A DNA stretch of 64,000 nucleotides from Thermoplasmatota archaeon (GCA_029762535.1 JARVGK010000010.1:4602-68601); one strand, 5' to 3'. Numbered from the stretch's first letter, positions 1 to 40,657 are shown. Made by a program: numbers and translations. Notes: a model not told the origin generated them from the sequence alone.

Positions 1-1
1 A

Positions 2-3000
2 GGTTTATCGGACGCGTTCGTCATGAAGATGGATACGACAACGGGAGATCTCATCTATTCCACCCTGATAGGAGGCGATCTTTGGGACGGGATACACGAT
101 ATGATCGTTGACGAGCAAGGCTGGGTGTACGTCTGCGGCGGGACCTACTCCTCGAACTTCCCGACCACTCCGGGGGCATACTCCCGTTCACGAAAAGGGG
201 AGACGGACGCATTCGTCCTGATCCTGAACGAAAACGGCAGCGACATCATCCACTCGACATTGGTGGGAGGATCGACGCATGACCGCTTCTACGGTATCCG
301 CAGGAACAGGGAGGGTAATGTCATCGTTTCGGGACACGCCGAGGACAGCGATTATCCGACAACGCCCGGAGCCTTCGACCGGACCTATGCGGGAGGGGGA
401 GATATCGTCGTTACCATCCTGGACCCCGAGCTTTCGAGCATCCTCTTCTCCACCTACGCCGGGGGCGCCGGCCGGGAAGCCGTCGAGGCGATCGATATCG
501 ACTCCCTGGGGAACATATACCTCTGCGGTTTCACCGATTCCGACGATCTGCCGACGACCTACGGGGAATACGATACCTACGGCGGGAACCGGGACGCCTT
601 CTTCATGGTCTTCGAACCCGATCTTGGCTCGCTCAAGAGGTCGACCTACATCGGCGGATCCGACATCGATGAGGCAAAGCATGTGGCGCTGGACGGATAC
701 GGCTCGGTGATGGTATCCGGGATCACGCAGTCATCTGATTTTCCCGTTACGGGATCGGGTTTCGGCCCCGGCGGAGGACGGGACCTCTTCCTGAGTGTAT
801 TCAGGGACGAGATAGGCACGAATCCCATCAGGTTCGATCCCGCCATCCCCCGAACGGGAGAAGAGCTCAGGATCTCCCTGGATGCAGTGGACATCGATCC
901 GGATACCGCCCTGTTCCACTACAGCGTCGATGACGGTCCGCTCAGTACGATCGAGGCGATCAAGGTCGGAGAGGGCCGGTTCCGCCTCCGCTTCGACGTT
1001 CCCAATGATGCCGTTCTCATTGACCATTATCACGAGTACCTGATAGCCGGAAATGTCGTGAGGCGCTCCTCGGTCGAAATGCTGCCGGTTATTGACGATG
1101 AGCCTCCCATCCTCGTCGCCGATCGATCGGACCGGATCGCGAGCATGGGCTCACACTACGCTTTCGAGTTCACCGTATCCGACAACGTTGGGATCTCGTC
1201 CGCCAGCGTCGAATACAATCTGGACGATGGGACGCCAAAGACGATGGCCCTGACGGGAAAGAACGACCTTTCCGGCAGCATAACGATACCCTATGCCGCA
1301 AGGACCCTCGCCTATCGTTTGATCGCATCGGACGCCTGGGGCAATCATGCCCGGGTCGATACCATTCGTGTTGAGGTCGTGCCCCCCAGCTACGAGCTTA
1401 TCTATTCGGCGTACATGGATGATGATCCCGAATGGCGCAGGGAGGGTGACGGCTTCTTCTGGAGCGGAAGCTCATACCGAATTGAGGGCGGATACGGCTA
1501 TGCCGGCGCCGATGTGGATGGCATCGAGGGATCGTTCGTCCTCGAGTACGATATCGGGATCGATGTCCTGGAGATGGGCTCATCGCTTTCTTTCGGGCTG
1601 CGGGACGCAGATATGAGCGGGGCCGGCCAGATGGCGGAGATCGCCTTCGGTTCCGGATCCTTCACGGACTACGTCGAGCTGAGAACGATCGACGTGAATG
1701 GGAAGTCAAAGGAGGTGCGTGCGGCTCTGGACATCCCTGAAGGGGAGCTCTACAGGTGCAGGATACGATACGACCCCCAAGTCGAGGCGGTGTATGGTAC
1801 CGTGATAAAGCTCGATGGCTTTACGGAGGCTTCGTCCTTGGTTATTGAGGACGTGAAGGCTTTCGATGACCTGTCCACCGTATGTTCCTCGAACCTCGGA
1901 TCCGATGCCACAGGAGAATCGTCCGGTCGGATCGACGACGTACTGTTGTTCAAGGAGCGAAGGACCGCCCTTATAGCGAGGGACCTCGGCCCGGATAACG
2001 CGACCACTGGCGACCCCGTGTACCTCTCTGCGCTGCTATCCGATCCCGCGAGGATCTCCTCCGCAGTATTGGAATACGGTTTCGATGACGGAACACCGAT
2101 GAGGACTGCGCTCGTCGTCGATCAGGTGGTCGGCCTGCATGTCGCGGTTCCTCCCAACGCCTTGGAGATAAGCTACCGCTTCCTTGTCACGGACCTTTAC
2201 GGGATCGGTGACGCCTCAGCTCTCAGGGCCATACCCGTCATGGACAACGATCCACCCGAGATAATTGAGGACAGGACCGCGGAGATGGCCCAAGCGGGTG
2301 CGAACCTCAGCATATCCGTGATGGTCGAGGACAACATAGGCGTGGAGGAGGTATGGGTCGAATACAGCATCGACGGTTCAGCTCCTTCAATTGTGGCTCT
2401 CTCCGGAGATCGCGAGTTCTATGGGCAGATCCGGGTCCAGGGCGGATCGCTTCTCCGATACGGTATCCATGCCAGGGATACATCGGGTAACGTCGGGAAG
2501 GGGCCGCTGCGCACACTCGAGATCATCGATGCGCATCCACCGTTCCTTTCAAGGGACAGAACACCTGTAAAAGGAGTTGTCGGGGAGGTCTTCAGGTTCG
2601 AGATCGAGGCGAACGACAACAGCGGGGCCTTCACCGCCTGGGTCGATCTCAGCCTCGGAGGAAGGGACAGGCAACGCATCATCATGGATGGTGAGGGCGG
2701 GATCCGCTATGCGGAAGTATCTATATATGCATCCCTCGCCCGATCGATCAACTACACGATATTCATATCGGATATGAGCGGCAACTCGATCTCGATCGGA
2801 CCGAAGTTCGCGACATTGGAGAACCCTTTCATCAACGCCCTGCCTTCGGGTTCGGTCATGCTTTACGAGGGGGAGAACTTAGAGGACCTGATGCGCCTGC
2901 CGCCCTTCGTCGTGACATCCTCCCTCTCGCACATTAGAGGAGGGCGCATTGTCCAGGGCGTGCCGTCGGATCCCGGGTTATATACGATGCATGTAAGATT

Positions 3001-3697
3001 GACCGACGTGTACGGGATCGAACACTCTTTCTCTCTTCAAATGACGCTGCTCCCCGAGGAGCATGATTCGGACGGGGACGGTATGCCCGACCTGTGGGAG
3101 AGGCGATACGGCCTGGATCCCCTTGACCCCCTTGACGGTTCGGAGGACTCCGACGAGGACGATCTGACCAACTATCAGGAATACCTCAACGGGACCGATC
3201 CCTTCGATCCGGACACGGACAAAGACGGCATGCCCGACGGTTGGGAGGTCAGGTACGGGCTGGACCCGCTTCGGTTCTCCGCCCTGGACGATACGGACGG
3301 GGACGGCAGAACGGATCTCGAGGAGTACCTTTCAGGGTCGGATCCCACGGTCAAGGACGTCGCAAGGTCCAGAGGTATCAGGATCTCATTTGCCGTCGTC
3401 GTTATCGTGGCATTGCTATTCCTCATCCTCATCGCTGTAGTGATGTCGCTCGCCATGAGCCTTGGAAAGGTCAGCAGGAGGATAGTTGATCCGAACGGTG
3501 AAGGGGAAATGGACATCAAGAACGGGGACAACGGGATCGCTCAAAACGGGGTCAGATACATGGATCCCATGGACCCCATGAACATGGGTATCCCGATCCC
3601 CGACGTCGAGGAGAAGGCGATCCAATCTGATGTAAAGGACGGCGAGGTAAATGGGAGAAAGCCACCTCAGAAGAGATACCCCGTCTATGTCCTTTGA
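2..3697 (+). CDS. Giant surface protein, 5'-truncated at window edge. Contains beta-propeller (SBBP-like) repeats with recurring NFPTTPGAY / DAFV motifs, two thrombospondin type-3-like Ca-binding modules (DxDGDGMPDxWExRYGLDP...EYLxGTDP), a C-terminal TM anchor and a ~80 aa cytoplasmic tail.
   Basis: The reading frame is open back to nt 2 (GLSDAFV matches the internal repeat motif), so the gene starts upstream of the window. Recurring repeat motifs, an Asp-rich TSP3-like module, and a hydrophobic stretch FAVVVIVALLFLILIAVVMSLAM near the C-terminus. Confidence 0.7.
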   Translation, partial: GLSDAFVMKMDTTTGDLIYSTLIGGDLWDGIHDMIVDEQGWVYVCGGTYSSNFPTTPGAYSRSRKGETDAFVLILNENGSDIIHSTLVGGSTHDRFYGIRRNREGNVIVSGHAEDSDYPTTPGAFDRTYAGGGDIVVTILDPELSSILFSTYAGGAGREAVEAIDIDSLGNIYLCGFTDSDDLPTTYGEYDTYGGNRDAFFMVFEPDLGSLKRSTYIGGSDIDEAKHVALDGYGSVMVSGITQSSDFPVTGSGFGPGGGRDLFLSVFRDEIGTNPIRFDPAIPRTGEELRISLDAVDIDPDTALFHYSVDDGPLSTIEAIKVGEGRFRLRFDVPNDAVLIDHYHEYLIAGNVVRRSSVEMLPVIDDEPPILVADRSDRIASMGSHYAFEFTVSDNVGISSASVEYNLDDGTPKTMALTGKNDLSGSITIPYAARTLAYRLIASDAWGNHARVDTIRVEVVPPSYELIYSAYMDDDPEWRREGDGFFWSGSSYRIEGGYGYAGADVDGIEGSFVLEYDIGIDVLEMGSSLSFGLRDADMSGAGQMAEIAFGSGSFTDYVELRTIDVNGKSKEVRAALDIPEGELYRCRIRYDPQVEAVYGTVIKLDGFTEASSLVIEDVKAFDDLSTVCSSNLGSDATGESSGRIDDVLLFKERRTALIARDLGPDNATTGDPVYLSALLSDPARISSAVLEYGFDDGTPMRTALVVDQVVGLHVAVPPNALEISYRFLVTDLYGIGDASALRAIPVMDNDPPEIIEDRTAEMAQAGANLSISVMVEDNIGVEEVWVEYSIDGSAPSIVALSGDREFYGQIRVQGGSLLRYGIHARDTSGNVGKGPLRTLEIIDAHPPFLSRDRTPVKGVVGEVFRFEIEANDNSGAFTAWVDLSLGGRDRQRIIMDGEGGIRYAEVSIYASLARSINYTIFISDMSGNSISIGPKFATLENPFINALPSGSVMLYEGENLEDLMRLPPFVVTSSLSHIRGGRIVQGVPSDPGLYTMHVRLTDVYGIEHSFSLQMTLLPEEHDSDGDGMPDLWERRYGLDPLDPLDGSEDSDEDDLTNYQEYLNGTDPFDPDTDKDGMPDGWEVRYGLDPLRFSALDDTDGDGRTDLEEYLSGSDPTVKDVARSRGIRISFAVVVIVALLFLILIAVVMSLAMSLGKVSRRIVDPNGEGEMDIKNGDNGIAQNGVRYMDPMDPMNMGIPIPDVEEKAIQSDVKDGEVNGRKPPQKRYPVYVL

Positions 3698-3802
3698 TCG
3701 CTCCCAGGTGCGACAGGGAACAGGCAATATCCCTGAAATACTTCAGGTGTGATACCACGGATCACCATGCGATTGATATATCGAAGGGACATATCAGGTG
3801 AG

Positions 3803-4420
3803 ATGGCCCCGAAGAAGTACTACGTCGTGTGGATCGGGAGATCCCCCGGGATCTACGCTACCTGGAGCGAATGCCGGGAGCAGGTCCATAACTACAAGGA
3901 TGCCAGATACAAGGCCTTTCTGGGCCTTGAAGAGGCACGAGAGGCGTTCTCCGAAGGTTGGCAGAAACACTACCGACGGGGATCGAATGTCAAAAAGATG
4001 CCCTTGACGGGCAGCGGACCCGTTCCCGACAGCATCTCGGTGGATGCGGCCTGTTCCGGGAATCCTGGGCCTACCGAGTACAGAGGAGTGCATACTAAAA
4101 GCGGGGATCCCCTCTTCGAGGGGAGGTTGAGATTCGCGACGAACAACATCGGGGAGTTCCTCGCCATTGTAGAAGCGCTGAGGATCCTCAAAGGGAAGAG
4201 ATCGGATATGCCGATATATTCCGATTCGGGAACCGCCATAACATGGGTCCGGAAGAAAAGGTGCAACACCGCCCTGAGGGGATCCGCTTCGACTAAGGAG
4301 GCCTTCGAAAGGATCGAGGGGGCCGAGAGATGGCTCGAGGAGAACGACTACCCCAACCCGATCCTGAAATGGGACACCCGGCGCTGGGGGGAGATCCCCG
4401 CGGACTATGGGAGGAAATGA
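3803..4420 (+). CDS. rnhA: Ribonuclease HI with an N-terminal hybrid-binding (caulimovirus viroplasmin-like) domain.
   Basis: N-terminal YYVVWIGRSPGIYATWSECREQVHNYKDARYKAF matches the HBD/Cauli_VI domain. It is followed by an RNase H core (ISVDAACSGNPGP...EFLAIVEAL...SDSG). A GGTGA RBS-like motif lies just 5' of the ATG at 3803; the ORF track start at 3749 is probably too long. Confidence 0.75.
   Translation: MAPKKYYVVWIGRSPGIYATWSECREQVHNYKDARYKAFLGLEEAREAFSEGWQKHYRRGSNVKKMPLTGSGPVPDSISVDAACSGNPGPTEYRGVHTKSGDPLFEGRLRFATNNIGEFLAIVEALRILKGKRSDMPIYSDSGTAITWVRKKRCNTALRGSASTKEAFERIEGAERWLEENDYPNPILKWDTRRWGEIPADYGRK
4388..4419. repeat. Left copy of a 32-bp direct repeat GGGGAGATCCCCGCGGAYTATGGGAGGAAATG; it forms the last codons of rnhA.
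   Basis: 31/32 identical to 5904-5935. The two copies flank the ATPase gene. Confidence 0.85.
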
Positions 4421-4490
4421 TCGCATGTCGATCCATCCCCCCCTTCTATCCCAGCGGGATCTCTCCTTCGGATCATTCGTTATTCCTGTG

Positions 4491-4520
4491 GGAAAAATAA
4501 TATACCATATCGGTTATAAA
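4491..4520 (+). promoter_or_regulatory. AT-rich BRE/TATA-like element (aaaaataatata...ttataaa) 16-45 nt upstream of the ATPase ATG; fits a leaderless archaeal promoter.
   Basis: TTATAAA at 4514-4520 and AAAATAATATA at 4494-4504 in an otherwise GC-rich region, immediately 5' of the ATG at 4536. Confidence 0.4.
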
Positions 4521-4535
4521 CCATAATGGTGTAAT

Positions 4536-5900
4536 ATGTCGTTCTTCGACAGATCGGACGAATTGGAGATAATTGGAAAGGCCCTTAAACGCCCATATTG
4601 TTTCGTCGTAATTACTGGAAGAAGGCGTATCGGCAAGACCAGGCTCGTGCGGGAGGCCCTCGCCGGGACCGATCACATCGAGCTGTTCATCCCCAGGAAG
4701 AGGAGGAGCCAGGTCCTTGAACAGCTGAGGTCATCCATAGCAGAGCAGACCGGATTCTCCCCGGACTTTTCCGATCTCGGGACACTCCTGGAATATCTTT
4801 TCAGAAAGGAGAAAAGACCGGTCTTCATCGACGAGATCTCGAATGTACAAAAGGTGGATCCTGGATCGTTCTCCGACATACAGAGGATATACGACCGTTA
4901 CAAGGAGGAATGCGGAATACACCTCATAGTCGACGGATCGTATGTTGGCGTTATGAAGAGGATATTCCAGGACAGGAAGGAGCCACTCTTCGGCAGGGCG
5001 ACGGATGTCATACAGTTGAGGCCGCTGCCCATAAAGGATTCCATTGGAATGGCCATGGAGCAGGGTTTCGGTCCCGTCGATTCCCTCGAGGCCCGATCCA
5101 TCCTCGGGGGAGTACCTCGTTACCTCGAACTGATCCACGGATACAGGGACATGAGGGATCTCAAGGAGAGGGTATTCGATCAGGGTTCCATCTTTCCAAC
5201 CGAACCGGAGAACATTCTCATTCAGGAGTTCGGAGCATCCTGGGAGACGTATTTCTCCATACTCGAGGTGATAGCCGCAGGCGCGACCGGGCCCTCGGCG
5301 ATCGCCAACGAGCTCGATATGAACGCACAGATGGTGCCGAAGTACCTGAACAGGCTCATCGGGATCGGGATATTGATGAAGGAGAAGCCGCTATTCGGAA
5401 AGAAGAAACAGGTCCGATATTCTATATGCGACCCCTATCTTGATATCTGGTTCGGGGTTTACTATCCGAGGATAGAACTCTACAGGGAGGGGGTGTCCAG
5501 GGTTCCGCTGGAAACGATCGATTCTGCCATCGGCCGGGCCATGGAGCGAACGATAAGGGAGATCGTCTCATTAGGTGGGGTTGTGCCTTTTAATATCGAC
5601 GGGATCGGATCATGGTGGAATCGCTCAGGAGATGAGATAGATATCGTGGCCTTCAACAGGAAAGGGAGCCATATTGCCTTCGGGGAGGTGAAATGGGGAT
5701 CGCACATTGTAGGACCCGATGTCGTATCCAAGCTGATCGAGAGATCGGCGATGGTGCAATGGAATCAGAAGAAGAGGAGCGAAACGTTGTTCATCGTCTC
5801 CAGGTCCGGTTTCAACAAGAAAGCGATGGAATTGATGGAGCAACACGGTATAGCCGGCATGGATACGGCTCGATTGATGAGGATCGTGCTTAATCCGTAG
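4536..5900 (+). CDS. Archaeal ATPase family protein (AAA-like P-loop NTPase with a C-terminal DUF234-type domain).
   Basis: Walker A motif VVITGRRRIGKTRLV, a Walker B-like region VFIDEISNV, and a C-terminal region typical of DUF234-containing archaeal ATPases. The gene sits between the 32-bp direct repeats. Confidence 0.7.
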   Translation: MSFFDRSDELEIIGKALKRPYCFVVITGRRRIGKTRLVREALAGTDHIELFIPRKRRSQVLEQLRSSIAEQTGFSPDFSDLGTLLEYLFRKEKRPVFIDEISNVQKVDPGSFSDIQRIYDRYKEECGIHLIVDGSYVGVMKRIFQDRKEPLFGRATDVIQLRPLPIKDSIGMAMEQGFGPVDSLEARSILGGVPRYLELIHGYRDMRDLKERVFDQGSIFPTEPENILIQEFGASWETYFSILEVIAAGATGPSAIANELDMNAQMVPKYLNRLIGIGILMKEKPLFGKKKQVRYSICDPYLDIWFGVYYPRIELYREGVSRVPLETIDSAIGRAMERTIREIVSLGGVVPFNIDGIGSWWNRSGDEIDIVAFNRKGSHIAFGEVKWGSHIVGPDVVSKLIERSAMVQWNQKKRSETLFIVSRSGFNKKAMELMEQHGIAGMDTARLMRIVLNP

Positions 5901-5903
5901 GGC

Positions 5904-5935
5904 GGGGAGATCCCCGCGGATTATGGGAGGAAATG
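5904..5935. repeat. Right copy of the 32-bp direct repeat. In the rnhA frame it would encode GEIPADYGRK and then continue WGE-stop (ending ~5945), i.e. a plausible ancestral rnhA C-terminus.
   Basis: Read directly at 5901-5945: ggcGGGGAGATCCCCGCGGATTATGGGAGGAAATGgggggaatga. Confidence 0.85.
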
Positions 5936-6014
5936 GGGGGAATGAAAATTGTATTTTCCTTCGTTGCATACCCAACAGTCACGATTTAATATATCCTCGC
6001 GTTGAGGGGGGTCA

Positions 6015-7379
6015 ATGGCGGATCCCGTCTTCGCGATACTGTTGATATCATATCTTTTAGTCCTTCTGTTCATAGGATACAGGAGCCGGACGAAGAGCGG
6101 GGACGCCCACTTCTTCATCGCCGACAGGAAGCTGGACCGAAGGTCGGTGGCGTTCACATTAGGGGCGACCGTCGTAGGAGGATCCGCCGTCATCGTGACG
6201 GGATCCCTCGTCTTCGAGCACGGGACCTCCGGGCTATGGTACGATATCGGTGGGATCCTGGGGCTTATCTTTCTGGGCATCTTCGTCGCCCCGAGGATCA
6301 GGAGGACCAGAGCCCACTCCCTACCGGACCTCATCGGGATCCACTACGGCGAAACGGGGAAGGTCGCCTCGTCCTTGGTCCTGGTCCTTGTGGAGATCGG
6401 ATGGATCGCGCTGCTCCTGCAGGCGTCCAGATATGTCCTCTCAGAGGCGGCGGGAATATCCCCCGAGATCGCACTGCCCCTGGCAGCGGCGGTGTTCATA
6501 GCATATACCATTATGGGGGGGCAGAGGGCCGTCGTGATGACGGACAAGGTGCAGATAGTATTGTCCATTCTCGCATTGATATTGATATTCTTCGGCATGG
6601 CATCCCGGGGCGGCGGGATCGATCCCTCATCGCTCTCATTCCCAGTATCCAAGGGGATCGGACCAACGCTTGCGATCTCGGCGTTCCTCATAATGTTCCT
6701 GTCGCACGCGGTGGGACCGGACATCTACTCGAAAGTATTCTCCTCCCGTTCAGGGACCGAGGCGCGCTGGGGCGTCATAGGAGGTGGGCTCCTGAAGCTG
6801 TTCGCCTCGGTACTGGTGGCCTCCATCGCCCTTCTGGGGATCTCCATGTACGGGGATTCGATCTCCGGCGGGGCTCTTATACCGACCGCTGCGAAGGATG
6901 TGCTGCCTGGGGCCCTGTTCTATGTCGCTATGATCGGCCTTCTATCCGTTATGCTATCCTCCGCCGATTCCTGTCTGTTATCCGGGGCCACGTTCATATC
7001 CTGGGACCTCCTGAAGGCAAAGGACGGCAGATGGACCCGCTCCATATCCATAGCAGTCCTGGGGATCGTCTCATACATTGTGGCTTTTCACAGCCCCGGC
7101 ATATTGGAGACCCTCACTTTGACATATACCTTCTTCTCGGCCAGCATGGTCCCCTCCGTGATCGCGATCCCCTGGAAGGATAGGCTGGGGATCGACAGGA
7201 AGGGTGCGATCTCCTCCTTCATCGTTGGTGGAGGAGGAGTCCTCCTCTTGTATATCTTGACAACTATGGAGATCTGGAGCGGAAGCCTTCTGTTCCTCCC
7301 GCTGACACTCTCCTTCCTGATTCTCTTTGCTGTGTCGAGGATCCCGACAGGGAACCACGGGATCGGAAATTCTATCTGA
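6015..7379 (+). CDS. Sodium:solute symporter family (SSF) transporter.
   Basis: Polytopic membrane protein. The N-terminal region (FFIADRKLDRRSVAFTLGATVVGGSAVIVTGSLVF) and overall architecture are typical of SSF (PutP/PanF-like). The overlapping 6002-7183 ORF in another frame is Arg/Pro-rich and judged spurious. Confidence 0.7.
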   Translation: MADPVFAILLISYLLVLLFIGYRSRTKSGDAHFFIADRKLDRRSVAFTLGATVVGGSAVIVTGSLVFEHGTSGLWYDIGGILGLIFLGIFVAPRIRRTRAHSLPDLIGIHYGETGKVASSLVLVLVEIGWIALLLQASRYVLSEAAGISPEIALPLAAAVFIAYTIMGGQRAVVMTDKVQIVLSILALILIFFGMASRGGGIDPSSLSFPVSKGIGPTLAISAFLIMFLSHAVGPDIYSKVFSSRSGTEARWGVIGGGLLKLFASVLVASIALLGISMYGDSISGGALIPTAAKDVLPGALFYVAMIGLLSVMLSSADSCLLSGATFISWDLLKAKDGRWTRSISIAVLGIVSYIVAFHSPGILETLTLTYTFFSASMVPSVIAIPWKDRLGIDRKGAISSFIVGGGGVLLLYILTTMEIWSGSLLFLPLTLSFLILFAVSRIPTGNHGIGNSI

Positions 7380-7399
7380 GCAACTCATTTCTGCGTTGT

Positions 7400-10258
7400 T
7401 CATTCCTCGGCTTCCCATTCGGAGGATCCCTTAGATCTCCTAATGACGAACATTATAAGGACAAGGATAGCCAGGATGACCATCACCGCAGCGAGTATCA
7501 CGAAAGCTATCCATGGATCGCTGCTCTCTTTCTTGTCCGACACTCCCGGATCCGTCCCTTTCAGATACTCCTCCAGATTGGTGTATCCATCCCCGTCGGG
7601 ATCGAGACCTGCATCGTCGGGATCGGAATCGGATAACCCGTATCTCTCCTCCCAATCCATGGGGATCCCGTCGCCGTCGTGGTCCTTCGTTCTATCGATC
7701 CCCACAAGAATGGTCCAGTTCAACACCGTTATGCCACCCTCCCCGTCATCTGCGCTGAGGGTTATGAAATAGGAACCGGCCTCGTCGAAGATCATCGAGA
7801 ACCCCTCATCGGTCCTGGTGACCTGCGCTCCCTCGGCGGATATGGAGACCTCTACCTCATCCGAAGGGTCAGAAGCCTCATCTATCTTCACTAGAAGCGT
7901 CTGGTCCTCGAGCATGGTCCCATCGGAGTTTGGATAGACGAGAGACGCCCTGAGAGTCGGTTCGACGTTATAGGCGATCAACGTGAGGTTGGAGTAGGTC
8001 ATGCCTCCGTCATCATCCCTCACCGCTGCATGAACCGTATAGTTCCCATCGTTCGGGAGAACGAATGCATACGAAGAATTCTCCAATGTCAGGTTCGACC
8101 ACTCCGAGAACACACCATCCAATGACCATGATATCATCATCGGATCGTGAGGAGCATCGGTCGCTTCCACGCTGATGATGACAGTATCGCCCTCGTTCAC
8201 CTCGACCGCGCTCGCCTCGATCGACACCACGGGTGCCCTGTTGAGGACCGAAACGATCGCATTATATGAGACGGTCCTTCCGAACCCGTCATTTACCGTT
8301 ACGGAAACGTTGTATTCCCCGTCATCCATGAATGTGTGTTCGATAGATGAGGACGATGTGTTGATACCCGAACCGTCGATCATCCAGGAGAACTCATAAG
8401 TGTTGTCCGGGATATGGTCGAGTATGTTGGATGTGAACATCGCGCTCTCGTTCTCGAATATGGTTTCCGGGCCCGTGAAGTTAACTGTGAGCTCATCCTT
8501 GTAAAAGACCAATGTCACGAACTCCCCTGTTACATCATCGTCGGGGTCCGGGTCCTGTCCGGGCATCATGGTAACGGTCCCGTTCTCATAGGAGACAGTG
8601 ACGTTCTCGGCTTCATATCCCGTCATCATCCACCCTCCCGGTATTACTGCGCTGCCTATTGTTTCCTCGAACATATCATCGTATGTCATATTGAATACAA
8701 GGGAGCGTAATGCCGAGTCATCCAAGGTTCCGTTCAGCACATATCTACCGCCGACCCTCAACTCCATCGGGACCATGAGGTCCACAGGGCCCGTGAGGTT
8801 AATGAAATCGAAATATCCATCGACCCTGTCATAGTAAAGGCCGTCAAGGGTGATGTTCCCGGTGGTATTGAAGCCGAAAGGTGCCGATGCCATCTCATCG
8901 TCATCCTCCATGGCCATCGCGAGGAAATCCTCCAATTCCTGATCGTTGAGAACCTGATCACCATCCCCCATCATTAGGTCCATGAACAGCCTCATGTACC
9001 TGGTGGAGTTGACGTGAGTTTTCATCACACCATCCACTTCGAACGCCTCCCAGCCATCGAAGGATATGATGTTGGTGGCCGTGCTGTTCTTCGAATCCCT
9101 CAAAGAAATCTCGAGTTCCATGTCCTCATCAACGGTAATGGGTGCGAAATACGTCTCGTACTCCCAGCCATCGAACGGGTCCTCCCCGCCGATGATGAGA
9201 TGGCCCGGCACGTCGGACACGATCATGGAAAAGTGTCCCTTATCATCCGTCCTTAATGCGTTCTGGTCCGGGAAAACCTTCGATTGAATGAAGTTCACAG
9301 CGATGTCCTCGAGCGGATCCCCGGCTTGGTCCGTTAAGGCCCCCGACAGTTCATACTGCCTGTATCCAAGTGTGATATTGTACCAGAATACCCCCCCTTC
9401 CGGGATATCGACCCTGGAGAAGTGGAAATCATAGTCATCCGACATGGTGATGATCATATGCATCCCTTCCCAGAACTCGAACTCGTAATATCCAGCCTCA
9501 TCGACCATGGCCATGAGCTGGAAATCCAGGTACTGGTCGAATATTATGACGAGTATCTCCTCAAGCGCTGAGGCCCCGTCGGTGACGTATCCTTTGACCG
9601 TTGTCCTCATCTCCGGGATCATGGGGATCCCTATGTCGAGTTCATAGGGGCTCATCTCCTCCTCGAAGGATGAGTATTCCTCATGAACGATCAGTCCCCT
9701 GAAAAAAAGGCGGAAAGAGTAGAATGCCGGGAATATCTCAAGGGAGAACTCTCCCGATGCATCGGTCATGGCCTCGTATTCGTAATGGTCGGATCCTGAG
9801 AAAGAGGCGTATTCGAGAACGACCCTGACCCCCTGGGCGTCATCCCCGCCCTGGACGAAATGAACGTGTCCATTGATCTCCACGGTCTCGTTCGGGCGGT
9901 TGGACAAAGTGACGTTGTGAACGTTGGTCCCAACATCCAGTATCAGGCCCTTGCTCCGATAGAGCAGGTAGCCGTCCTTCACAACCTCGACGATGACGTG
10001 GCTCGTCATATCGAGGTAGAACGAGTAATGGCCGGTCCCGTTCGTGATCGTGCTGTTGAGGAATTCCATGTCGGTACTCATGACCCTTACAGAAGCTCCC
10101 TCAACAGGCGCTTCGGAGGCGTAAGTGATGTAACCTTCGATCCAGTATTGGGGTTTTCTTGTATATCCCTCCGCTTCCGAAGATGCGAAAAGGGGGAACA
10201 ACAAGGCCAAGGCGATCGCTATACCGATGGTTGATCTGAGGATAGAATTCCCATACAT
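7400..10258 (-). CDS. Giant surface protein with signal peptide, carboxypeptidase-regulatory-like/PKD beta-sandwich domains, one thrombospondin type-3-like module, a C-terminal TM anchor and a short tail ending EWEAEE.
   Basis: N-terminal hydrophobic signal [20 protein letters not shown]-like block ([11 protein letters not shown]...[10 protein letters not shown]). [47 protein letters not shown]-terminus [37 protein letters not shown]. Confidence 0.7.
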
Positions 10259-36022: not shown

Positions 36023-39000
36023 ATGGGATCGTCGTATGCCAGGGCATTGATGGCCGCGATAGCGATGACGCTGTTCTTCGTCCCATCGGGGATGATCAGC
36101 GGCTCGGAGGATGATGTGTACGAGGCGCCCTTTGATGTTATCCAACTTACCATCGAAGGCGGCCTCGATGCGGTCTTCATCGAGAACAGGGGACAGTGGG
36201 ATCCCGAGGTCATGTTCGTGGCGAGGACGGGATATGGCCAGGTCGGATTCACGAAAGACGGAATATACCACAACGTTGTGATTGTCGAGAGGACCGAGCC
36301 TGAACGAAGGGGCATGACCGGGGCGGCCTCGGCCGACTCATGCCTGGTTGGCATCGGGTTCTCGGGATCCAACCCCGCGACCCCAGTGGGCGTCGATGTT
36401 CTCCCGACCGAATACAATTACTTCCTCGGGTCCGATCCCTCAAGATGGGCCTCGGGGGTAAGCGCCTACTCGTCCATTGTTTACAGGGATCTCTGGGACG
36501 GGATCGATCTGATATACAAAGGGGGTCCGGACGGCCTCAAGTACGACATCGTCCTTCGCCCGGGGGCGGATCCCGACTCCGTCCGGTTCGAGGTGGATGA
36601 TTCGACCCTCCTCTCGGTCCGGGGAGATTCCCTCCACATAGGTACCCCTCTCGGAATGGACCTCGTCGATGGCGGGCTCAGGACATTCTACATGGACACC
36701 ATGGAGCCGATCCCTTCCTCATTTTCGTTGGATGGGGGCCTCTTCGGATTCTCGCTCTCATCCTATGATAAGGACAGGAGCGTCGTCATCGATCCGACCG
36801 TGAACCTCCTGGCCCTGAACTTCTCCACGTTCATCGGAGGAAGTAGTAGCGACTACCCTTACGAGATGGACGTGGACGCATCGGGGAACGTCTTCGTGTG
36901 CGGAGCGACATACTCTACGAACTTCCCCACCATCAGGGGGCAGTCTTACCAGGAGAGGATCAATGGATACGGCGACGCCTTCGTACTCAAGCTCGATTCC
37001 GCCGGCAGGAGCCTGCTCATCTGCACCTACATCGGAGGCTCCAGCTCTGATGAGGCCACGAGCATCAAGGTCGATGATAACGGCGACTGCTACGTCGCCG
37101 GTGTCACGACCTCGGAGGACTTCCCCACGACGAAGGACGCCTACAACGACACCCTCTACAGCAGTTCACTGGACCTATTCATACTCAAGCTCAACAGCAG
37201 GGGCAGCGATCTCATTTACTCCACGTATCTGGGCGGAGCGGATTATGATTATTTTCCCAGGATCGATATCGATGATTCCGGGAACGTCTACCTTGCAGCC
37301 TCGACAATATCCGATAATTTTCCCATTACCTCAAATGCTTATCAGAACACGCTCATCCCCGACCCGTGGGGGGGGTGGGCCTGGGACATGGTGTTCCTCA
37401 AGATGGACCTCTCGAAAATGGATCTGATCTATTCCTCTTACCTCGGTGGCGAAGGTTCCGACATCTCCACTTCGATACGATACGACGATGCCGGCAGCGT
37501 GTACATGGGTGGCTACACGGATTCCTCGGACTTCAATGTTACCAGCGGAGCTTATCAGGGAACAATTAATGGAAGGACGGACGGATTCGTCTTCAAGTTC
37601 GACATGACGGCAAAAAGCATGACCTACTGCACCTACTTCGGAGGGACCAGCGGTAGTACATACATCAGCGACATGGACATCGACGAGTCGGGAAACGTCT
37701 ATGCATGTGGTGAGACAGATTCTCAAAACCTCCCCGTTACCATCGGTGCGTACGACGCCCAGATGGACGGAGGGGCTGACGCGTTCGTCATGCGCCTCAA
37801 CTCCGCAGGGAGCGGGCTAGTATTCTGCACCTTCGCCGGCGGTTCGGGATACGAAAGCTTCCAGGGCATAAGCCTGGACGATGAACTGGACATCCATCTC
37901 TCGGGGTATATCTACGACACCTTCGATTTCCCCATGCCGAACGGCGTGTTCCAGCCTTCGGCCGGTGGCGGATTGCAGGAGGGTGTGTACATGAAGCTCT
38001 CGAACGACGGCAGCGAGAACCTCTACTCAACGTACGTCGGGGGGGTCAGCTATGATGAATGCACGGATGTGGTAGTGTGCCCGAACAGCCAGGAGCCGAT
38101 CGTACTCGGGTCCACATCTTCCTCCGACTTCCCGACCAAGGGCGGGTCCTACGACACCACCCACAACGGGGCCGACGATATCTTCGTGCTCAAGCTCATA
38201 CTCTCCCTGCCCCCGGACCCGCCGGGGACCCCTGTCGCGTCAGCGGGCGATTCCTTCGTCAACCTCTCATGGGATCCCCCCGCCATCGACGGAGGGGCTC
38301 CTGTCACCGATTACGAGGTGCATCGAGGGACCAAGTCCGGATCCCTCTCGAGGATCGCCTTCACGGAAGGGAACAGCTCGTACAACGATACCTCCGTCAC
38401 CAACGGGATCAAGTACTACTATGCCGTCCTCGCCGTTAACAGGATGGGGCCGGGAAAGCTCTCCGACGAGATCATTGCCCTGCCGGCGACCGTTCCCACG
38501 CCTCCCCGTAACGTCGTGGCAAGATACAGCAACAGGTTCGTCAACCTGACGTGGATCGCTCCGGAGGACGACGGAGGCCTCGTGCTTCAGGGCTTTTATC
38601 TCTACAAGTTCACCGGGTCATCGCAGACCCCCGAGGTCTCCACGATAGAGCCCTACATCAAGACCTATTCCGACGAATCGGTCACGAACGGCATCAACTA
38701 CCGCTATTTCCTCACCGCCTTCAATACCATGGGGGAATCCCCGCCCTCGATCGAGGTAAACGCGACCCCGAGGACAAGGCCGGGGATGGTGGAGGACGTG
38801 GTCATAAGTACGGGACCTGAGTTCATCAGCCTGAGATGGAGCGCCCCTGAATGGGACGGCGGCAGCCCGATCCTGAACTACACCATATTCAGGGCGGTCC
38901 AGAGCGGGTCCTTCGCGAGATACGTCACCCTCCCGGCGATGCCGAGGATCTTCAACGACACGGGGCTGGAGAACGGCCTCAGATATCGATACAAGCTCAT

Positions 39001-40657
39001 AGCCCTCAACTCGGAAGGGTCGGGCGATCCCACGGACGAGGTCTCGGCCGTTCCTCTTGATCGGCCCTCCATGCCAACGAACTTCGAGGTGGAGGCGTTC
39101 TCCAACTCCGTCAAGATAACGTGGGGGCAGCCGTTGAGGGATGGTGGCACCCCGGTGCTGGGCTTCAACATCTACCGCGCGGAAAAGAGCATGATATGGA
39201 GCAACATTCGAGAGCTAGACGTACTGGACGAGTCCTACACGGACAACAGCGTCATCAACGGAAGGACGTACATCTACAGGATGACGGCCCTAAACGATGT
39301 GGGCGAATCGGAACACACCGAAGAGATCAACGTAACGCCCCTCGGCAGGCCCGGATCGCCGATGGGTTACAACATAGAGGCCGGGGACAGGTTCGTTATC
39401 CTGAGCTGGGAGACGCCCCTCGACCACGGAGGGACCCCCGTCACCGGATTCAAGGTGTTCAGGGGCGAGTCCTCGCAGGAGATGGGGCTATACGCAACCA
39501 TTGAAGGCCCGGAACACACCTACAACGACACAAAGGTCAAGAACGGCCTCACATATTATTACAAGGTAGCGGCGACGAACGCCGTTGGCGACGGGCCCTT
39601 CACGGAAGCGAAGAGCGCAAGGCCCGCTTGGGTCCCGTCCCCTCCGTCGAACGTTCAGGTGACACCAGGGGACGGATTCGTGGACATATCCTGGGGACCT
39701 CCCATGAACGACGGCGGTGACCCGGTCACCGAGCTCAGGATTTTCAGGGGAACTGACCCGAACTCAAGCGTCCCCCTCCTTACATCCAGCGTCCTAACCG
39801 GATCCTACAGGGACACGACGGTGACCAACGGTGTGGAGTATTATTACAGCATGTCCTCATCTAATTCCATAGGGGAGAGCATCAGGACCACTCCGGCTCC
39901 CGCGATGCCCTCGGGCAAACCCACTGCGCCCAGGAACGTCATCTCGACCGCAGGTTCCGGGTCAGTTAGGGTGACCTGGGATGCGCCATCCAGCACGGGC
40001 GGTCTTCCCCTCACTGGCTACAATATATACAGGACATCGACCACGAAAGGCAGCATTCTCATCGGGGACGTCGGCCCGGATGTTCTGGAGTACAGCGACC
40101 GCAACGTTGTCTCCGGTGGGACGTATCTTTACAGGATCTCCGCGGTGAATGCGAACGGCGAGGGCCCGCAGTCAGAGTCCGTAGAGGCCTACATCACCGA
40201 AAAAGCGGACCACACTCTGGTCATCGTCGTCGCTTCCATGATCGTCCTGGTAATGATCATACTCGCCATCGCGCTCGCGGTCTTCCTATCGAGGAAAAAG
40301 AAGAAACAACAGCAGATGCCGCAGCAGGCCCCTGCCCCTGGCATGATGGCGCCTCCGCCTTACCCGCTCGCCGCGGGCCAGGCGTACCCGGGGATGATGA
40401 TGCCCGCCCCGTCCACGCCCCTCCCGCCCGGCACCCCGCAGGAAGGGCTGCCTCCCAGCGAACCGCGGGTATCCCTGCCCGTGTATCAAAATGAGGAGGC
40501 CCCGGTGGAGGACGAGCCTGAGAAGAGCGATCCCGGGGAACATGTCCAACAGGAAGAGAACGAGGGAACATCCGTCGAACCTCCGATCGATGCATCGCCA
40601 GAGCCCGAGGTCCAGGACGACGACCCGTTGAAGGGTTTCTACAACGAGGAGCAATAA
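36023..40657 (+). CDS. Giant surface protein (1544 aa) with signal peptide, SBBP-like beta-propeller repeats and about seven fibronectin type-III domains. It also has a TM anchor and a Pro-rich/acidic cytoplasmic tail.
   Basis: Signal peptide AMAAIAMTLFFVPSGMISG. Recurring NFPTIRG / DFPTTKDAY / NFPITSNAYQ motifs as in ORF 2-3697. Repeated FN3 signatures (P-x-x-P-x-N...S-V-x-L-x-W-x-x-P...DGG-x-P-I-x-x-Y). TM anchor LVIVVASMIVLVMIILAIALAVF followed by KKKKQQQMPQQAPAPGMM.... Confidence 0.75.
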   Translation: MGSSYARALMAAIAMTLFFVPSGMISGSEDDVYEAPFDVIQLTIEGGLDAVFIENRGQWDPEVMFVARTGYGQVGFTKDGIYHNVVIVERTEPERRGMTGAASADSCLVGIGFSGSNPATPVGVDVLPTEYNYFLGSDPSRWASGVSAYSSIVYRDLWDGIDLIYKGGPDGLKYDIVLRPGADPDSVRFEVDDSTLLSVRGDSLHIGTPLGMDLVDGGLRTFYMDTMEPIPSSFSLDGGLFGFSLSSYDKDRSVVIDPTVNLLALNFSTFIGGSSSDYPYEMDVDASGNVFVCGATYSTNFPTIRGQSYQERINGYGDAFVLKLDSAGRSLLICTYIGGSSSDEATSIKVDDNGDCYVAGVTTSEDFPTTKDAYNDTLYSSSLDLFILKLNSRGSDLIYSTYLGGADYDYFPRIDIDDSGNVYLAASTISDNFPITSNAYQNTLIPDPWGGWAWDMVFLKMDLSKMDLIYSSYLGGEGSDISTSIRYDDAGSVYMGGYTDSSDFNVTSGAYQGTINGRTDGFVFKFDMTAKSMTYCTYFGGTSGSTYISDMDIDESGNVYACGETDSQNLPVTIGAYDAQMDGGADAFVMRLNSAGSGLVFCTFAGGSGYESFQGISLDDELDIHLSGYIYDTFDFPMPNGVFQPSAGGGLQEGVYMKLSNDGSENLYSTYVGGVSYDECTDVVVCPNSQEPIVLGSTSSSDFPTKGGSYDTTHNGADDIFVLKLILSLPPDPPGTPVASAGDSFVNLSWDPPAIDGGAPVTDYEVHRGTKSGSLSRIAFTEGNSSYNDTSVTNGIKYYYAVLAVNRMGPGKLSDEIIALPATVPTPPRNVVARYSNRFVNLTWIAPEDDGGLVLQGFYLYKFTGSSQTPEVSTIEPYIKTYSDESVTNGINYRYFLTAFNTMGESPPSIEVNATPRTRPGMVEDVVISTGPEFISLRWSAPEWDGGSPILNYTIFRAVQSGSFARYVTLPAMPRIFNDTGLENGLRYRYKLIALNSEGSGDPTDEVSAVPLDRPSMPTNFEVEAFSNSVKITWGQPLRDGGTPVLGFNIYRAEKSMIWSNIRELDVLDESYTDNSVINGRTYIYRMTALNDVGESEHTEEINVTPLGRPGSPMGYNIEAGDRFVILSWETPLDHGGTPVTGFKVFRGESSQEMGLYATIEGPEHTYNDTKVKNGLTYYYKVAATNAVGDGPFTEAKSARPAWVPSPPSNVQVTPGDGFVDISWGPPMNDGGDPVTELRIFRGTDPNSSVPLLTSSVLTGSYRDTTVTNGVEYYYSMSSSNSIGESIRTTPAPAMPSGKPTAPRNVISTAGSGSVRVTWDAPSSTGGLPLTGYNIYRTSTTKGSILIGDVGPDVLEYSDRNVVSGGTYLYRISAVNANGEGPQSESVEAYITEKADHTLVIVVASMIVLVMIILAIALAVFLSRKKKKQQQMPQQAPAPGMMAPPPYPLAAGQAYPGMMMPAPSTPLPPGTPQEGLPPSEPRVSLPVYQNEEAPVEDEPEKSDPGEHVQQEENEGTSVEPPIDASPEPEVQDDDPLKGFYNEEQ

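What the first reader, a model, noticed from the sequence alone, without database searches (positions are those of the whole stretch)
4388..5945. Single-gene ATPase insertion into the 3' end of rnhA flanked by 32-bp direct repeats
The last 32 nt of rnhA (GGGGAGATCCCCGCGGACTATGGGAGGAAATG, 4388-4419) recur with one mismatch immediately after the stop codon of the ATPase gene (5904-5935). The downstream copy continues in the rnhA reading frame as ...GEIPADYGRKWGE-stop (to ~5945). This suggests that the ancestral rnhA ended ...RKWGE and that a 1.48-kb segment was inserted with duplication of a 32-bp target/att core. The segment carries its own AT-rich promoter and a DUF234-type archaeal ATPase gene. 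32 bp is too long for a typical transposase TSD and no integrase or IS is present. It therefore looks like a cassette-type or site-specific insertion, or a remnant whose partner genes were lost. DUF234/Arch_ATPase genes are known to be highly variable in copy number in archaeal genomes. This gives a rare, clean footprint of how one moved.
Basis: seen in the sequence. Interest (0 to 1): 0.6.

Follow-up and report, generated by a model that had tools for sequence, protein, structure and literature searches.

The report
ATPase insertion scar beside RNase H
A 1.5-kb, single-gene insertion (a putative anti-virus ATPase) behind an archaeal RNase H gene is real, and a sister population holds the empty site, but its 32-base flanking repeat looks like a scar of ordinary recombination between two alternative gene arrangements, not the footprint of a new kind of mobile cassette.

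Summary
The 32-nt repeats lie at 4388-4419 and 5904-5935 with one mismatch. They occur only twice in the window and nowhere in the two public collections scanned. An independent assembly reproduces both junctions.

A sister population (ZHEN22 metagenomes) carries two alleles on near-identical upstream flanks:
- B, the empty site: rnhA, stop TAA, then the symporter.
- A: rnhA, the same left junction, a full-length 462-aa ATPase, then a different gene, with no clean second repeat.

The window is a chimera of A on the left and B on the right. Its right junction lies inside the ATPase's own 3' end, so 8 codons are lost. The junction falls on an 8-nt microhomology, GGGGAGAT, shared with the rnhA tail.

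The ATPase is less diverged from the sister population (dS about 0.1) than either flanking gene (0.23-0.33).

There are no terminal inverted repeats and no tRNA gene. No integrase or transposase domain was found among the window's large ORFs.

The ancestral rnhA did not end in RKWGE: 117 of 120 homologues end GRK-stop.

Best reading: homology-facilitated illegitimate recombination brought in a defence-candidate gene (PADLOC PDC-S27-like). How rnhA and the ATPase first became neighbours is unresolved. Interest is modest.

The parts
3803..4420 (+). rnhA: an RNase H1-type gene with a hybrid-binding domain plus an RNase H domain, 205 aa, with an intact canonical C-terminus ...WGEIPADYGRK followed by a TGA stop
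   Evidence: Pfam Cauli_VI (E 1.9e-18) and RNase_H. It is 100% identical to P0001, an NCBI MAG protein from a Ca. Thermoplasmatota archaeon. 117 of 120 homologues end GRK.
4388..4419 (+). Direct repeat copy 1: the functional 3' end of rnhA (codons GEIPADYGRK plus the TG of the stop codon). It carries C at 4405.
   Evidence: The C allele is shared with the A-type contig L012. From 4367 to the stop there are no differences from L012.
4421..4535 (+). 5' non-coding part of the insert. It holds an AT-rich archaeal-type promoter region and two ACC-N5-GGT palindromes (4504-4514 and 4520-4530) just upstream of the ATPase start codon.
   Evidence: GC content dips to 0.445. The last ~55 nt are conserved upstream of ATPase orthologues of 55-64% aa identity that sit in a different genomic context (alignment A2). 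This region is 87% identical to the A-type contigs. The promoter and operator roles are inferred.
4536..5900 (+). ATPase gene, 454 aa: AAA-type ATPase_2, a winged helix-turn-helix, and a DUF234 PD-(D/E)XK nuclease-like domain. It resembles the PADLOC candidate defence gene PDC-S27. It is 8 codons shorter than the 462-aa sister alleles.
   Evidence: Pfam. PADLOC PDC-S27, E 6e-33. 96% aa identity to P0121 and P0242. dN/dS is 0.16-0.18, so the gene is under purifying selection. The Walker A motif GRRRIGKT and the E367, D369 and E384-x-K386 residues are conserved.
5898..5900 (+). TAG stop of the ATPase. The A-type alleles have GAG or GAT here and read on for 8 more codons.
   Evidence: Compare.
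5904..5911 (+). Recombination joint: GGGGAGAT. This microhomology is shared by the ATPase 3' end (L012: GGCGGGGAGATTTCC) and the rnhA tail (GGGGGGAGATCCCC).
   Evidence: Three-way comparison of the window, L003 or L012 (A-type) and L001 (B-type). The window matches A-type up to this point and B-type from this point on. The rnhA tail matches this ATPase site better than any of 260 internal ATPase windows.
5904..5935 (+). Direct repeat copy 2: a detached rnhA tail that no longer belongs to any gene. It carries T at 5921, as do the B-type allele L001 and the A-type contigs L003 and L011.
   Evidence: It shows 0 differences in 31 nt from the sister-population rnhA tails, while the adjoining intergenic DNA is markedly more diverged: the 212-nt alignment that includes copy 2 (5904-6115) is 90.6% identical, and the spacer differs at roughly 1 base in 6 by eye. 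This points to a young duplication.
5936..6014 (+). Original rnhA-symporter spacer, colinear with the empty-site allele. GG replaces the AA of the B-type TAA stop.
   Evidence: L001 10586-10797 aligns to window 5904-6115 at 90.6% identity.
6015..7379 (+). Sodium:solute symporter gene, the native downstream neighbour of rnhA
   Evidence: Pfam SSF. It directly follows rnhA in L001. dS against the sister-population copy L013 is 0.225.

Best explanation
The 32-nt direct repeat is a by-product of recombination between two alternative arrangements of the same chromosomal locus. It is not a target-site duplication or an att core.

One arrangement (A) reads rnhA, ATPase of 462 aa, then another gene. 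The other (B) reads rnhA then symporter. A lineage with the B arrangement acquired the ATPase from an A-type relative.

On the left, the exchange ran through ordinary homology in the conserved rnhA 3' end. On the right, the incoming strand joined the recipient at an 8-nt microhomology, GGGGAGAT. This sequence sits within a 16-of-20-nt homeologous patch between the ATPase's last codons and the recipient's own rnhA tail.

The donor segment already carried a complete rnhA tail, so the product has two tails. Copy 1 (donor-derived) keeps rnhA intact. Copy 2 (the recipient's) is stranded behind an ATPase that lost its last 8 codons.

Mechanistically this is homology-facilitated illegitimate recombination. 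Equivalent routes are a break in the rnhA tail repaired from an A-type template with microhomology capture, or single-crossover integration of a circularised fragment.

Shown here: the three allele structures, the position of the joint, the truncation, and the unequal divergence. Inferred: the direction of transfer and the molecular route.

The cargo is a PDC-S27-like candidate defence gene with its own promoter, which fits its strain-level presence or absence.
For: 1. The empty-site allele B exists. In L001 rnhA ends in a TAA stop and the same spacer and symporter follow directly.

2. The occupied allele A exists in the same samples. L011 carries the same upstream genes and is 99.4-99.7% identical to L001. 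It ends at an rnhA TGA stop and overlaps L006 by exactly k = 55 nt. L003, L004, L005, L006 and L012 continue with the identical left junction (AAATGATCG), a 462-aa ATPase, 170 nt of spacer and then a DUF7948-like gene. They have no symporter.

3. The window matches A-type (95.8%) from 4364 to 5923. It matches B-type from 5904 onward. The overlap is GGGGAGAT.

4. The ATPase is truncated exactly at the joint.

5. The rnhA tail matches this ATPase site better than any of 260 other ATPase windows.

6. Synonymous divergence from the sister population differs by gene. It is 0.087-0.128 for the ATPase, 0.30-0.33 for rnhA and 0.225 for the symporter. Fisher p values are 5e-7 to 1e-3 against rnhA and 3e-5 to 8e-3 against the symporter. 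The ATPase therefore arrived later than its flanks diverged.

7. Copy 1 carries the C allele seen in A-type L012. Copy 2 carries the T seen in the B-type allele L001 and in the A-type contigs L003 and L011.

8. Copy 2 shows 0 of 31 differences from the sister rnhA tails. The spacer next to it is markedly more diverged, roughly 1 base in 6 by eye. Copy 2 was therefore under coding selection until recently.

9. The insert ends have no terminal inverted repeats. The window has no tRNA gene. No integrase or transposase domain was found among its ORFs of 200 aa or more. The gene family gave no hit on viral contigs.

10. Homology-facilitated illegitimate recombination, and circularisation followed by a single crossover, are documented routes (PMC3240628).
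Against: - The right-hand context of allele A is known for only about 2 kb. A larger island with a distal rnhA-tail copy cannot be excluded.
- The direction of change (A plus B giving the window type, or the window type giving A) is inferred from parsimony, one SNP and the freshness of copy 2. It was not observed.
- The A-type ATPase tail resembles the rnhA tail slightly more than chance (p about 0.006 by shuffling, 0.02-0.04 against genomic background). The whole rnhA-adjacent clade has also lost the Trp-containing C-terminal tail conserved in 17 orthologues. An older repeat-forming event at the same spot is therefore possible, and the model does not explain its origin.
- The left crossover is only weakly localised. 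The run of 54 nt without differences has P = 0.02, and a 60-nt run occurs elsewhere in the gene.
- The region is a general mosaic: 90-92%, then 97.5%, then 88% identity moving along the upstream flank. Divergence contrasts alone are therefore not decisive.
Confidence: 0.6

Rival explanations
1. A discrete single-gene cassette inserted site-specifically into the rnhA 3' end. The 32 nt are a duplicated target or att core, made by a recombinase acting in trans.
For: - The repeat is near-perfect and brackets exactly one gene plus its promoter.
- An empty site exists.
- The target is an extremely conserved coding motif, the kind of site integrative elements prefer.
- The ATPase travels with a conserved promoter-operator module.
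Against: - The right boundary cuts 8 codons off the cargo gene relative to its 96%-identical alleles.
- The other occupied allele has the same left junction but no matching right repeat and a different right flank.
- There are no terminal inverted repeats. The repeat has no attC-like hairpin beyond a 4-bp stem.
- No integrase, transposase or tRNA was found in the 64-kb window or in the 10 kb upstream in relatives.
- Orthologues at another locus, after an aldehyde dehydrogenase gene, have no flanking repeats.
- 32 nt is outside known target-site-duplication sizes, apart from Cas1-type integrases. No Cas1 domain was seen among the ORFs scanned.
Confidence: 0.12
2. The window holds the remnant of a larger integrated island. 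An element carrying the ATPase, the DUF7948-like gene and more integrated at the rnhA tail, leaving tail copies at both ends. Allele A would be the intact island. In the window's lineage, an internal deletion between the ATPase 3' end and the distal tail copy removed everything except the ATPase.
For: - Allele A continues into other genes to the right of the ATPase.
- The joint sits at a microhomology, as expected for a deletion.
- The sister-population contigs break near the symporter start, which could mark a second polymorphism boundary.
Against: - No distal tail copy or island end has been seen.
- The gene following the ATPase belongs to a chromosomal paralogue family of large secreted proteins. 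It shares 43.5% identity with window 36119-38059 and 32% with the gene upstream of rnhA. It is not typical mobile-element cargo.
- No integrase was found.
- The model needs two events where one is enough.
Confidence: 0.13
3. The window-type arrangement is the older one. The ATPase would have inserted into a B-type site with a 32-nt duplication by an unknown mechanism. Allele A would derive from it by a later rearrangement to the right of GGGGAGAT. Alternatively, allele A's tail is a decayed copy 2 and the window's copy 2 was refreshed by gene conversion.
For: - The A-type tail plus 9 nt aligns with the rnhA tail plus its stop codon (TGGCGGGGAGATTTCCTCCGATTA-AAATGGAAATGAT), in the same reading frame. 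The shuffle p is about 0.006.
- Both the A-type and window ATPases lack the Trp-containing tail conserved in 17 orthologues.
Against: - Against real genomic background the similarity reaches only p = 0.02-0.04.
- The model requires an unseen third allele or gene conversion.
- The C/T polymorphism pattern fits a donor-derived copy 1 better.
- Copy 2's 0 of 31 differences, beside a spacer that differs at roughly 1 base in 6, argues that it is young.
Confidence: 0.1
4. The structure is an assembly artefact: a chimeric contig that joins A-type and B-type strains through the repeat.
For: The sister-population assemblies do break at the rnhA tail.
Against: - Two independent assemblies give the identical sequence across both junctions.
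- The ATPase tail and the rnhA tail share only 8 nt, too short to mislead a de Bruijn assembler.
- The junction carries private substitutions (TAG; TGG in place of the stop codon).
Confidence: 0.02

Closest known systems
Homology-facilitated illegitimate recombination (HFIR), described for natural transformation in Acinetobacter, Streptococcus and Pseudomonas and for conjugation in E. coli (PMC3240628)
   Same: Foreign DNA is anchored by homology on one side and joined by a short microhomology on the other. No element-encoded recombinase is needed. The cargo can be truncated at the joint. A related route is circularisation followed by a single crossover, which leaves the homologous segment duplicated.
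   Different: This is a natural event in an uncultivated Thermoplasmatota archaeon, inferred from three alleles and not from an experiment. The illegitimate joint lies upstream of the end of the anchor, so the outcome is a 32-nt duplication and not the usual deletion. The DNA uptake route is unknown.
Integrative elements that target the 3' ends of conserved genes (usually tRNA genes) and carry a copy of the gene's end, giving attL and attR direct repeats
   Same: The direct repeat equals the 3' end of a conserved gene. The target gene stays intact because the incoming DNA supplies a replacement 3' end.
   Different: There is no integrase. There is no defined element terminus, since the right end lies inside the cargo ORF. 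Only one of the two occupied alleles has the repeat.
Integron gene cassettes
   Same: A single-gene unit of about 1.5 kb.
   Different: The unit has its own promoter. It has no attC imperfect palindrome, no IntI or attI, and is not part of an array.
PADLOC PDC-S27 and the archaeal ATPase_2/DUF234 proteins (candidate single-gene defence systems; PMC12988326, PMC3424549)
   Same: The domain architecture matches, and the HMM match has E 6e-33 over residues 2-408. The gene varies at strain level. The family is reported as common in Archaea, including Thermoplasmatota.
   Different: Defence activity is unproven for PDC-S27 in general and for this gene in particular. This copy lacks the C-terminal Trp motif of its closest orthologues.

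Membership tests
Transposon or IS insertion with target-site duplication | Terminal inverted repeats, or other defined ends, at both insert boundaries | tested here: not met
   The best alignment of the left 80 nt against the reverse complement of the right 80 nt scores 8. 62% of shuffles score as well. No terminal pair appears in the repeat finder.
Transposon or IS insertion with target-site duplication | A transposase gene in the element or nearby, and multiple copies of the element | tested here: not met
   The only ORF is the ATPase. No transposase domain was found among the window ORFs of 200 aa or more. The window holds a single copy.
Integrase-mediated integrative element (attL/attR) | A tyrosine or serine recombinase gene in or next to the element | tested here: not met
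   None was found in the window or in the 10 kb upstream in relatives.
Integrase-mediated integrative element (attL/attR) | The same att core at both ends in every occupied allele, with element ends outside cargo genes | tested here: not met
   The A-type allele has the left junction but only a 15-16 of 20 nt resemblance on the right. The window's right end removes 8 ATPase codons.
Integron gene cassette | An attC site (imperfect inverted repeat) at the cassette's 3' end, a promoterless ORF, and an array next to intI/attI | tested here: not met
   The repeat folds only into a 4-bp stem. The gene has its own conserved promoter region. There is no array and no IntI.
Casposon or Cas1-type integration (long staggered duplication) | A Cas1 integrase, terminal inverted repeats, and a target-site duplication of fixed length | tested here: not met
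   No terminal inverted repeats. No Cas1 domain among the ORFs scanned.
Homology-facilitated illegitimate recombination | One junction lies in extended homology shared by donor and recipient | tested here: met
   rnhA is shared by the A-type, B-type and window alleles. The window is identical to A-type L012 over the last 54 nt of rnhA and shares its left junction.
Homology-facilitated illegitimate recombination | The other junction lies at a short microhomology with no extended homology | tested here: met
   GGGGAGAT (8 nt) is the only overlap between the A-type and B-type sequences at 5904-5911.
Homology-facilitated illegitimate recombination | Plausible donor and recipient alleles exist, and the cargo is younger than its flanks | tested here: met
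   Both alleles coexist in one metagenome. ATPase dS is 0.09-0.13, against 0.23-0.33 for the flanks.
Homology-facilitated illegitimate recombination | Direct observation of the event, or of its dependence on host recombination functions | not testable with these tools
   This needs genetics or time-series data.
PADLOC PDC-S27 (candidate defence gene) | A significant full-length match to the PDC-S27 HMM | tested here: met
   PDLC04985: E 6.1e-33, residues 2-408 matched to profile positions 5-439 of 484.
PADLOC PDC-S27 (candidate defence gene) | Protection against viruses | not testable with these tools
Pfam ATPase_2 / DUF234 architecture | Matches above the Pfam gathering scores, a Walker A motif, and a PD-(D/E)XK motif | tested here: met
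   ATPase_2 scores 48.6 bits against a cut-off of 33.2. DUF234 scores 43.7 bits against 22.5. GRRRIGKT, D99-E100, D369 and E384-x-K386 are conserved.
RNase H1 with N-terminal hybrid-binding domain | Cauli_VI plus RNase_H domains and the canonical C-terminus | tested here: met
   NCBIfam RNaseH_Halikb scores 260 bits, below its equivalog cut-off of 320. The GRK-stop ending matches 117 of 120 homologues.

The most novel reading that the evidence does not exclude
The ATPase together with the rnhA tail may form a self-propagating single-gene unit. There are two versions of this idea:

1. Its own PD-(D/E)XK nuclease domain cuts the highly conserved rnhA 3' end in empty alleles. Repair then copies the gene in from an occupied allele, in a homing-like process.
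2. The unit loops out as a 1.5-kb circle by recombination between its two tail copies. It re-enters any genome through 32-55 nt of 'portable homology' to a universally conserved coding motif.

The weak resemblance of the A-type ATPase tail to the rnhA tail would then be the decayed scar of an earlier round.
Probability: 0.08. Interest if true: 0.7.

Novelty: new member of a known kind. Interest (0 to 1): 0.3.

Why it matters
The donor-like, recipient-like and recombinant alleles are all captured in public data. That makes this a clean natural example of how an uncultivated archaeon gained a candidate defence gene without any mobile-element machinery. One side used homology in a conserved housekeeping gene, and the other used eight bases of microhomology.

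It is also a caution. A long, near-perfect direct repeat around a single gene can be mistaken for a target-site duplication or an att site. Comparing alleles is what separated the two readings here.

It does not reveal a new class of element.

Tried and rejected
- **Generic repeat.** Rejected: only two copies in the window, and none in the GTDB genomes or JGI contigs.
- **Terminal inverted repeats, attC-like hairpin, known RNA family.** None found.
- **tRNA gene, or integrase or transposase domain among the window's ORFs of 200 aa or more.** None found.
- **Genome-collection scan with the ATPase.** No relatives found, so neither the window's species nor an A-type genome could be retrieved from that collection with this query.
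- **Viral contigs and PHROGs.** No match. Phage and plasmid records hold only relatives of about 30% identity or less.
- **Is rnhA-ATPase or rnhA-symporter adjacency conserved in more distant relatives?** No. ATPase orthologues of 58-60% identity follow an aldehyde dehydrogenase gene and have no flanking repeats. Symporter orthologues of 57-58% identity follow a PKD-domain gene.
- **Do ATPase family members in general carry flanking direct repeats?** Of 70 usable JGI loci, 7 scored above the null maximum. On inspection these are multi-copy palindromic intergenic repeats, tandem paralogues or paralogue remnants. They lie on AT-rich contigs (28-41% GC) whose ATPases are only about 30% identical. 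This is a different phenomenon.
- **Is the A-type ATPase tail a decayed rnhA tail?** Only weakly supported: p 0.006 by shuffling and 0.02-0.04 against genomic background.
- **Locating the left crossover.** Suggestive only.
- **Extending the A-type right flank.** Not possible. All five contigs that carry the ATPase are 3.7 kb or shorter, and the downstream protein could not be submitted to the look-up tools.
Full report
**Observation**

The window carries GGGGAGATCCCCGCGGACTATGGGAGGAAATG at 4388-4419. The same 32 nt, with one mismatch (C4405 versus T5921), lie at 5904-5935. With up to three mismatches allowed, these are the only two matches in 64 kb, against none expected in shuffles. The motif has no exact match in the GTDB representative genomes or the JGI metagenome contigs.

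Copy 1 is the end of a 205-aa RNase H1 gene at 3803-4420, which matches Cauli_VI and RNase_H. Between the copies lie 115 nt of AT-rich non-coding DNA and a 454-aa ORF at 4536-5900. That ORF has ATPase_2, winged helix-turn-helix and DUF234 domains. A sodium:solute symporter gene follows at 6015.

An independent Logan assembly of SRR24067139 is 100% identical over window 1536-8900. The structure is therefore not a MAG assembly artefact.

**The empty site exists**

The closest rnhA homologue, P0002 (85% aa identity), lies on a 66-kb ENA scaffold, L001, from the ZHEN22 metagenomes. Its upstream genes are 96% identical to the window. There rnhA ends ...GGAGGAAATAA. It is followed directly by GGGGAATGATAATTG..., the same spacer and the same symporter start as window 5936 onward. 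So, relative to this allele (B), the window has a 1,516-bp insertion.

**rnhA never ended in RKWGE**

Of the top 120 homologues, bacterial and archaeal, 117 end GRK-stop, two end GRKK and one ends GNK. The B allele ends GRK-TAA. The WGE read-through in copy 2 comes from the former stop codon reading TGG in the stranded copy.

**A second occupied allele changes the picture**

The closest ATPase homologues are P0121 and P0242, at 96% aa identity and 462 aa long. They come from the same ZHEN22 samples, on contigs L003-L006 and L012. These contigs begin inside the rnhA tail. L003 and L006 (ENA) share 55 nt of it and L004 and L005 (Logan) share 31 nt, which look like assembler k-mer overlaps; L012 begins a few bases further upstream. 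The assembly graphs therefore appear to branch at ...GGAGGAAAT.

L011 is a 26.6-kb scaffold that is 99.4-99.7% identical to L001. It ends at an rnhA TGA stop and overlaps L006 by 55 nt. Allele A therefore reads: the same upstream genes, rnhA, the same left junction (AAATGATCG), the ATPase, 170 nt of spacer, and then a large DUF7948-like secreted-protein gene. It has no symporter and no clean second repeat. Alleles A and B coexist in one sample, ERZ23498389.

**The right junction**

The window matches allele A at 95.8% from 4364 to 5923. It matches allele B from 5904 onward. The sequences at the joint are:

- A-type L012: ...GATCCGGATGGCGGGGAGATTTCCTCCGATTAA
- rnhA tail: ...CGCTGGGGGGAGATCCCCGCGGATTAT
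- window: ...AATCCGTAGGGCGGGGAGATCCCCGCGGATTAT

The only shared stretch is GGGGAGAT, set in a patch with 16 of 20 matching bases (15 of 20 for L003). No other 70-nt window of the ATPase gene matches the rnhA tail as well (0 of 260). The window's ATPase loses the last 8 codons of the A alleles at exactly this point. It also carries TAG where they have GAG or GAT.

The right end of the 'insert' is therefore a recombination joint inside the cargo gene, not an element terminus.

**Age and direction**

| Gene (window versus ZHEN22 population) | dS |
|---|---|
| Upstream SBBP gene | 0.058 |
| rnhA | 0.30-0.33 |
| ATPase | 0.087-0.128 |
| Symporter | 0.225 |

The ATPase is significantly less diverged than both of its neighbours. 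It is under purifying selection, with dN/dS of 0.16-0.18.

The upstream flank is itself a mosaic: 90-92%, then 97.5%, then 88% identity. Gene flow between these lineages is evidently common.

Copy 2 has 0 differences in 31 nt from the ZHEN22 rnhA tails. The alignment from copy 2 into the symporter start (5904-6115) is only 90.6% identical, and the spacer itself differs at roughly 1 base in 6 by eye. Copy 2 was therefore still under coding constraint until recently.

Copy 1 carries the C allele found in A-type L012. Copy 2 carries the T found in the B-type allele L001 and in the A-type contigs L003 and L011. From 4367 to the stop, the window's rnhA is identical to L012, although the rest of the gene differs at 21% of third codon positions. 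This has P = 0.02 and is suggestive only.

**Mechanism**

The simplest account is that a B-type chromosome acquired the ATPase from an A-type relative. The left side used homology in the conserved rnhA 3' end. The right side used microhomology between the ATPase's last codons and the recipient's own rnhA tail. The donor tract carried a full rnhA tail, so the product has two.

This is homology-facilitated illegitimate recombination (PMC3240628). Two routes would give the same product:
- a break near 4388 repaired from an A-type template, with capture at GGGGAGAT;
- single-crossover integration of a circularised fragment.

The structures, the joint and the divergence pattern are shown by the data. 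The route and the direction are inferred.

**What argues against a dedicated mobile element**

- No terminal inverted repeats.
- The repeat forms only a 4-bp stem.
- No Rfam match.
- No tRNA gene.
- No integrase, transposase or Cas1 domain among the window's ORFs of 200 aa or more, or in the 10 kb upstream in relatives.
- More distant orthologues (58-60% identity) sit after an aldehyde dehydrogenase gene with no flanking repeats.
- No relatives on viral contigs and no PHROG match.

A screen of 70 family loci from JGI metagenomes found seven with flanking repeats above the null. These turned out to be multi-copy palindromic intergenic repeats, tandem paralogues or paralogue remnants, on AT-rich contigs whose ATPases are only about 30% identical.

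**What remains open**

How rnhA and the ATPase first became neighbours (allele A) is not resolved. All 17 orthologues of 47-60% identity end in a tail of about 10-13 aa with a conserved Trp. The rnhA-adjacent clade lacks this tail.

The A-type tail plus 9 nt aligns with the rnhA tail plus its stop codon, in the same frame. The p value is about 0.006 by shuffling but only 0.02-0.04 against genomic background. This could be a decayed scar of an older event of the same kind. It could equally be the chance homeology that later guided the joint.

The A-type right flank is known for only about 2 kb. A larger island whose distal end carries another tail copy therefore cannot be excluded.

**The cargo**

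The ATPase matches the PADLOC candidate defence family PDC-S27 (E 6e-33). That family is a single-gene 'guilt-by-embedding' candidate. It is reported as abundant in Archaea, including Thermoplasmatota, and is still unvalidated (PMC12988326). DUF234 is classed in the PD-(D/E)XK nuclease superfamily (PMC3424549). The Walker A motif and the D...ExK residues are conserved.

About 55 nt upstream of the start codon, including two ACC-N5-GGT palindromes, are conserved across orthologues in different contexts. The gene therefore moves with its own regulatory region.

**Verdict**

The insertion and the empty site are real. The repeat is best read as a recombination scar and not as the footprint of a cassette mechanism. 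This is a tidy natural example of a known process, so interest is modest. A self-propagating, homing-like reading is not excluded, but nothing here supports it directly.

Noticed in passing
window 4504-4514 and 4520-4530; L007 5940-6000; alignment A2: Two or three ACC-N5-GGT palindromes lie directly upstream of the ATPase start codon. They are conserved across orthologues of 55-64% aa identity that sit in a different genomic context. They look like an operator, possibly for the protein's own winged helix-turn-helix domain, and they travel with the gene.
   Followed up: partly
window 3803-4420 (rnhA): Outside the sister population, the nearest homologues of this archaeal RNase H1 that carry an organism name are bacterial: Bacteroidales, Alkaliflexus, Paludibacteraceae and Bacillus, at 52-56% identity. 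Most hits are unnamed. This suggests an inter-domain transfer of the gene.
   Followed up: no
L099 1-9027 versus L001/L011; window 1-7400: Divergence from the ZHEN22 population is strongly mosaic. The Peptidase_M14 gene is 90-92% identical. The next 6.6 kb (a 398-aa gene plus the DUF7948/SBBP gene) is about 97.5% identical. rnhA is 88-89% and the symporter about 94%. This points to frequent recombination between these lineages.
   Followed up: partly
L001 end, L002 end, L011 end, and the starts of L003-L006: The ENA and Logan assemblies of the ZHEN22 samples break at the rnhA tail with overlaps that look like the assembler's k-mer length (55 nt or 31 nt). This marks a within-sample polymorphism between rnhA-symporter and rnhA-ATPase.
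   Followed up: yes
L013 1351-1540 versus window 7350-7540: Homology between the sister-population symporter contig and the window stops near the symporter's 3' end. The downstream flank is unrelated, so there is another rearrangement boundary on that side.
   Followed up: no
L061 (249-384 and 1986-2121, plus further copies), L086 (1865-1944 and 3515-3594), L039 (93-127, 2484-2518, 4088-4122): Distant ATPase family members (about 30% identity) on AT-rich JGI contigs (28-41% GC) are bracketed by multi-copy, internally palindromic intergenic repeats of 35-136 nt. The layout is reminiscent of cassette arrays or REP-like elements.
   Followed up: partly
L075 2773-2840 and 4354-4421 (also L072): A 68-nt direct repeat has a downstream copy that includes the last 27 nt of the ATPase ORF. 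The upstream copy ends in a matching short ORF end. This looks like the remnant of a tandem paralogue.
   Followed up: no
window 36023-40657; L003 1734-3707: The gene that follows the ATPase in allele A is a DUF7948/SBBP-type secreted protein. It shares 43.5% aa identity with window 36119-38059 (within the ORF at 36023-40657) and 32% with the gene upstream of rnhA. This is a large, variable paralogue family.
   Followed up: partly
alignment A1, columns 460-477: The rnhA-adjacent ATPase clade (window, P0121, P0242) has lost the C-terminal Trp-containing tail that is conserved in all 17 other orthologues aligned.
   Followed up: partly
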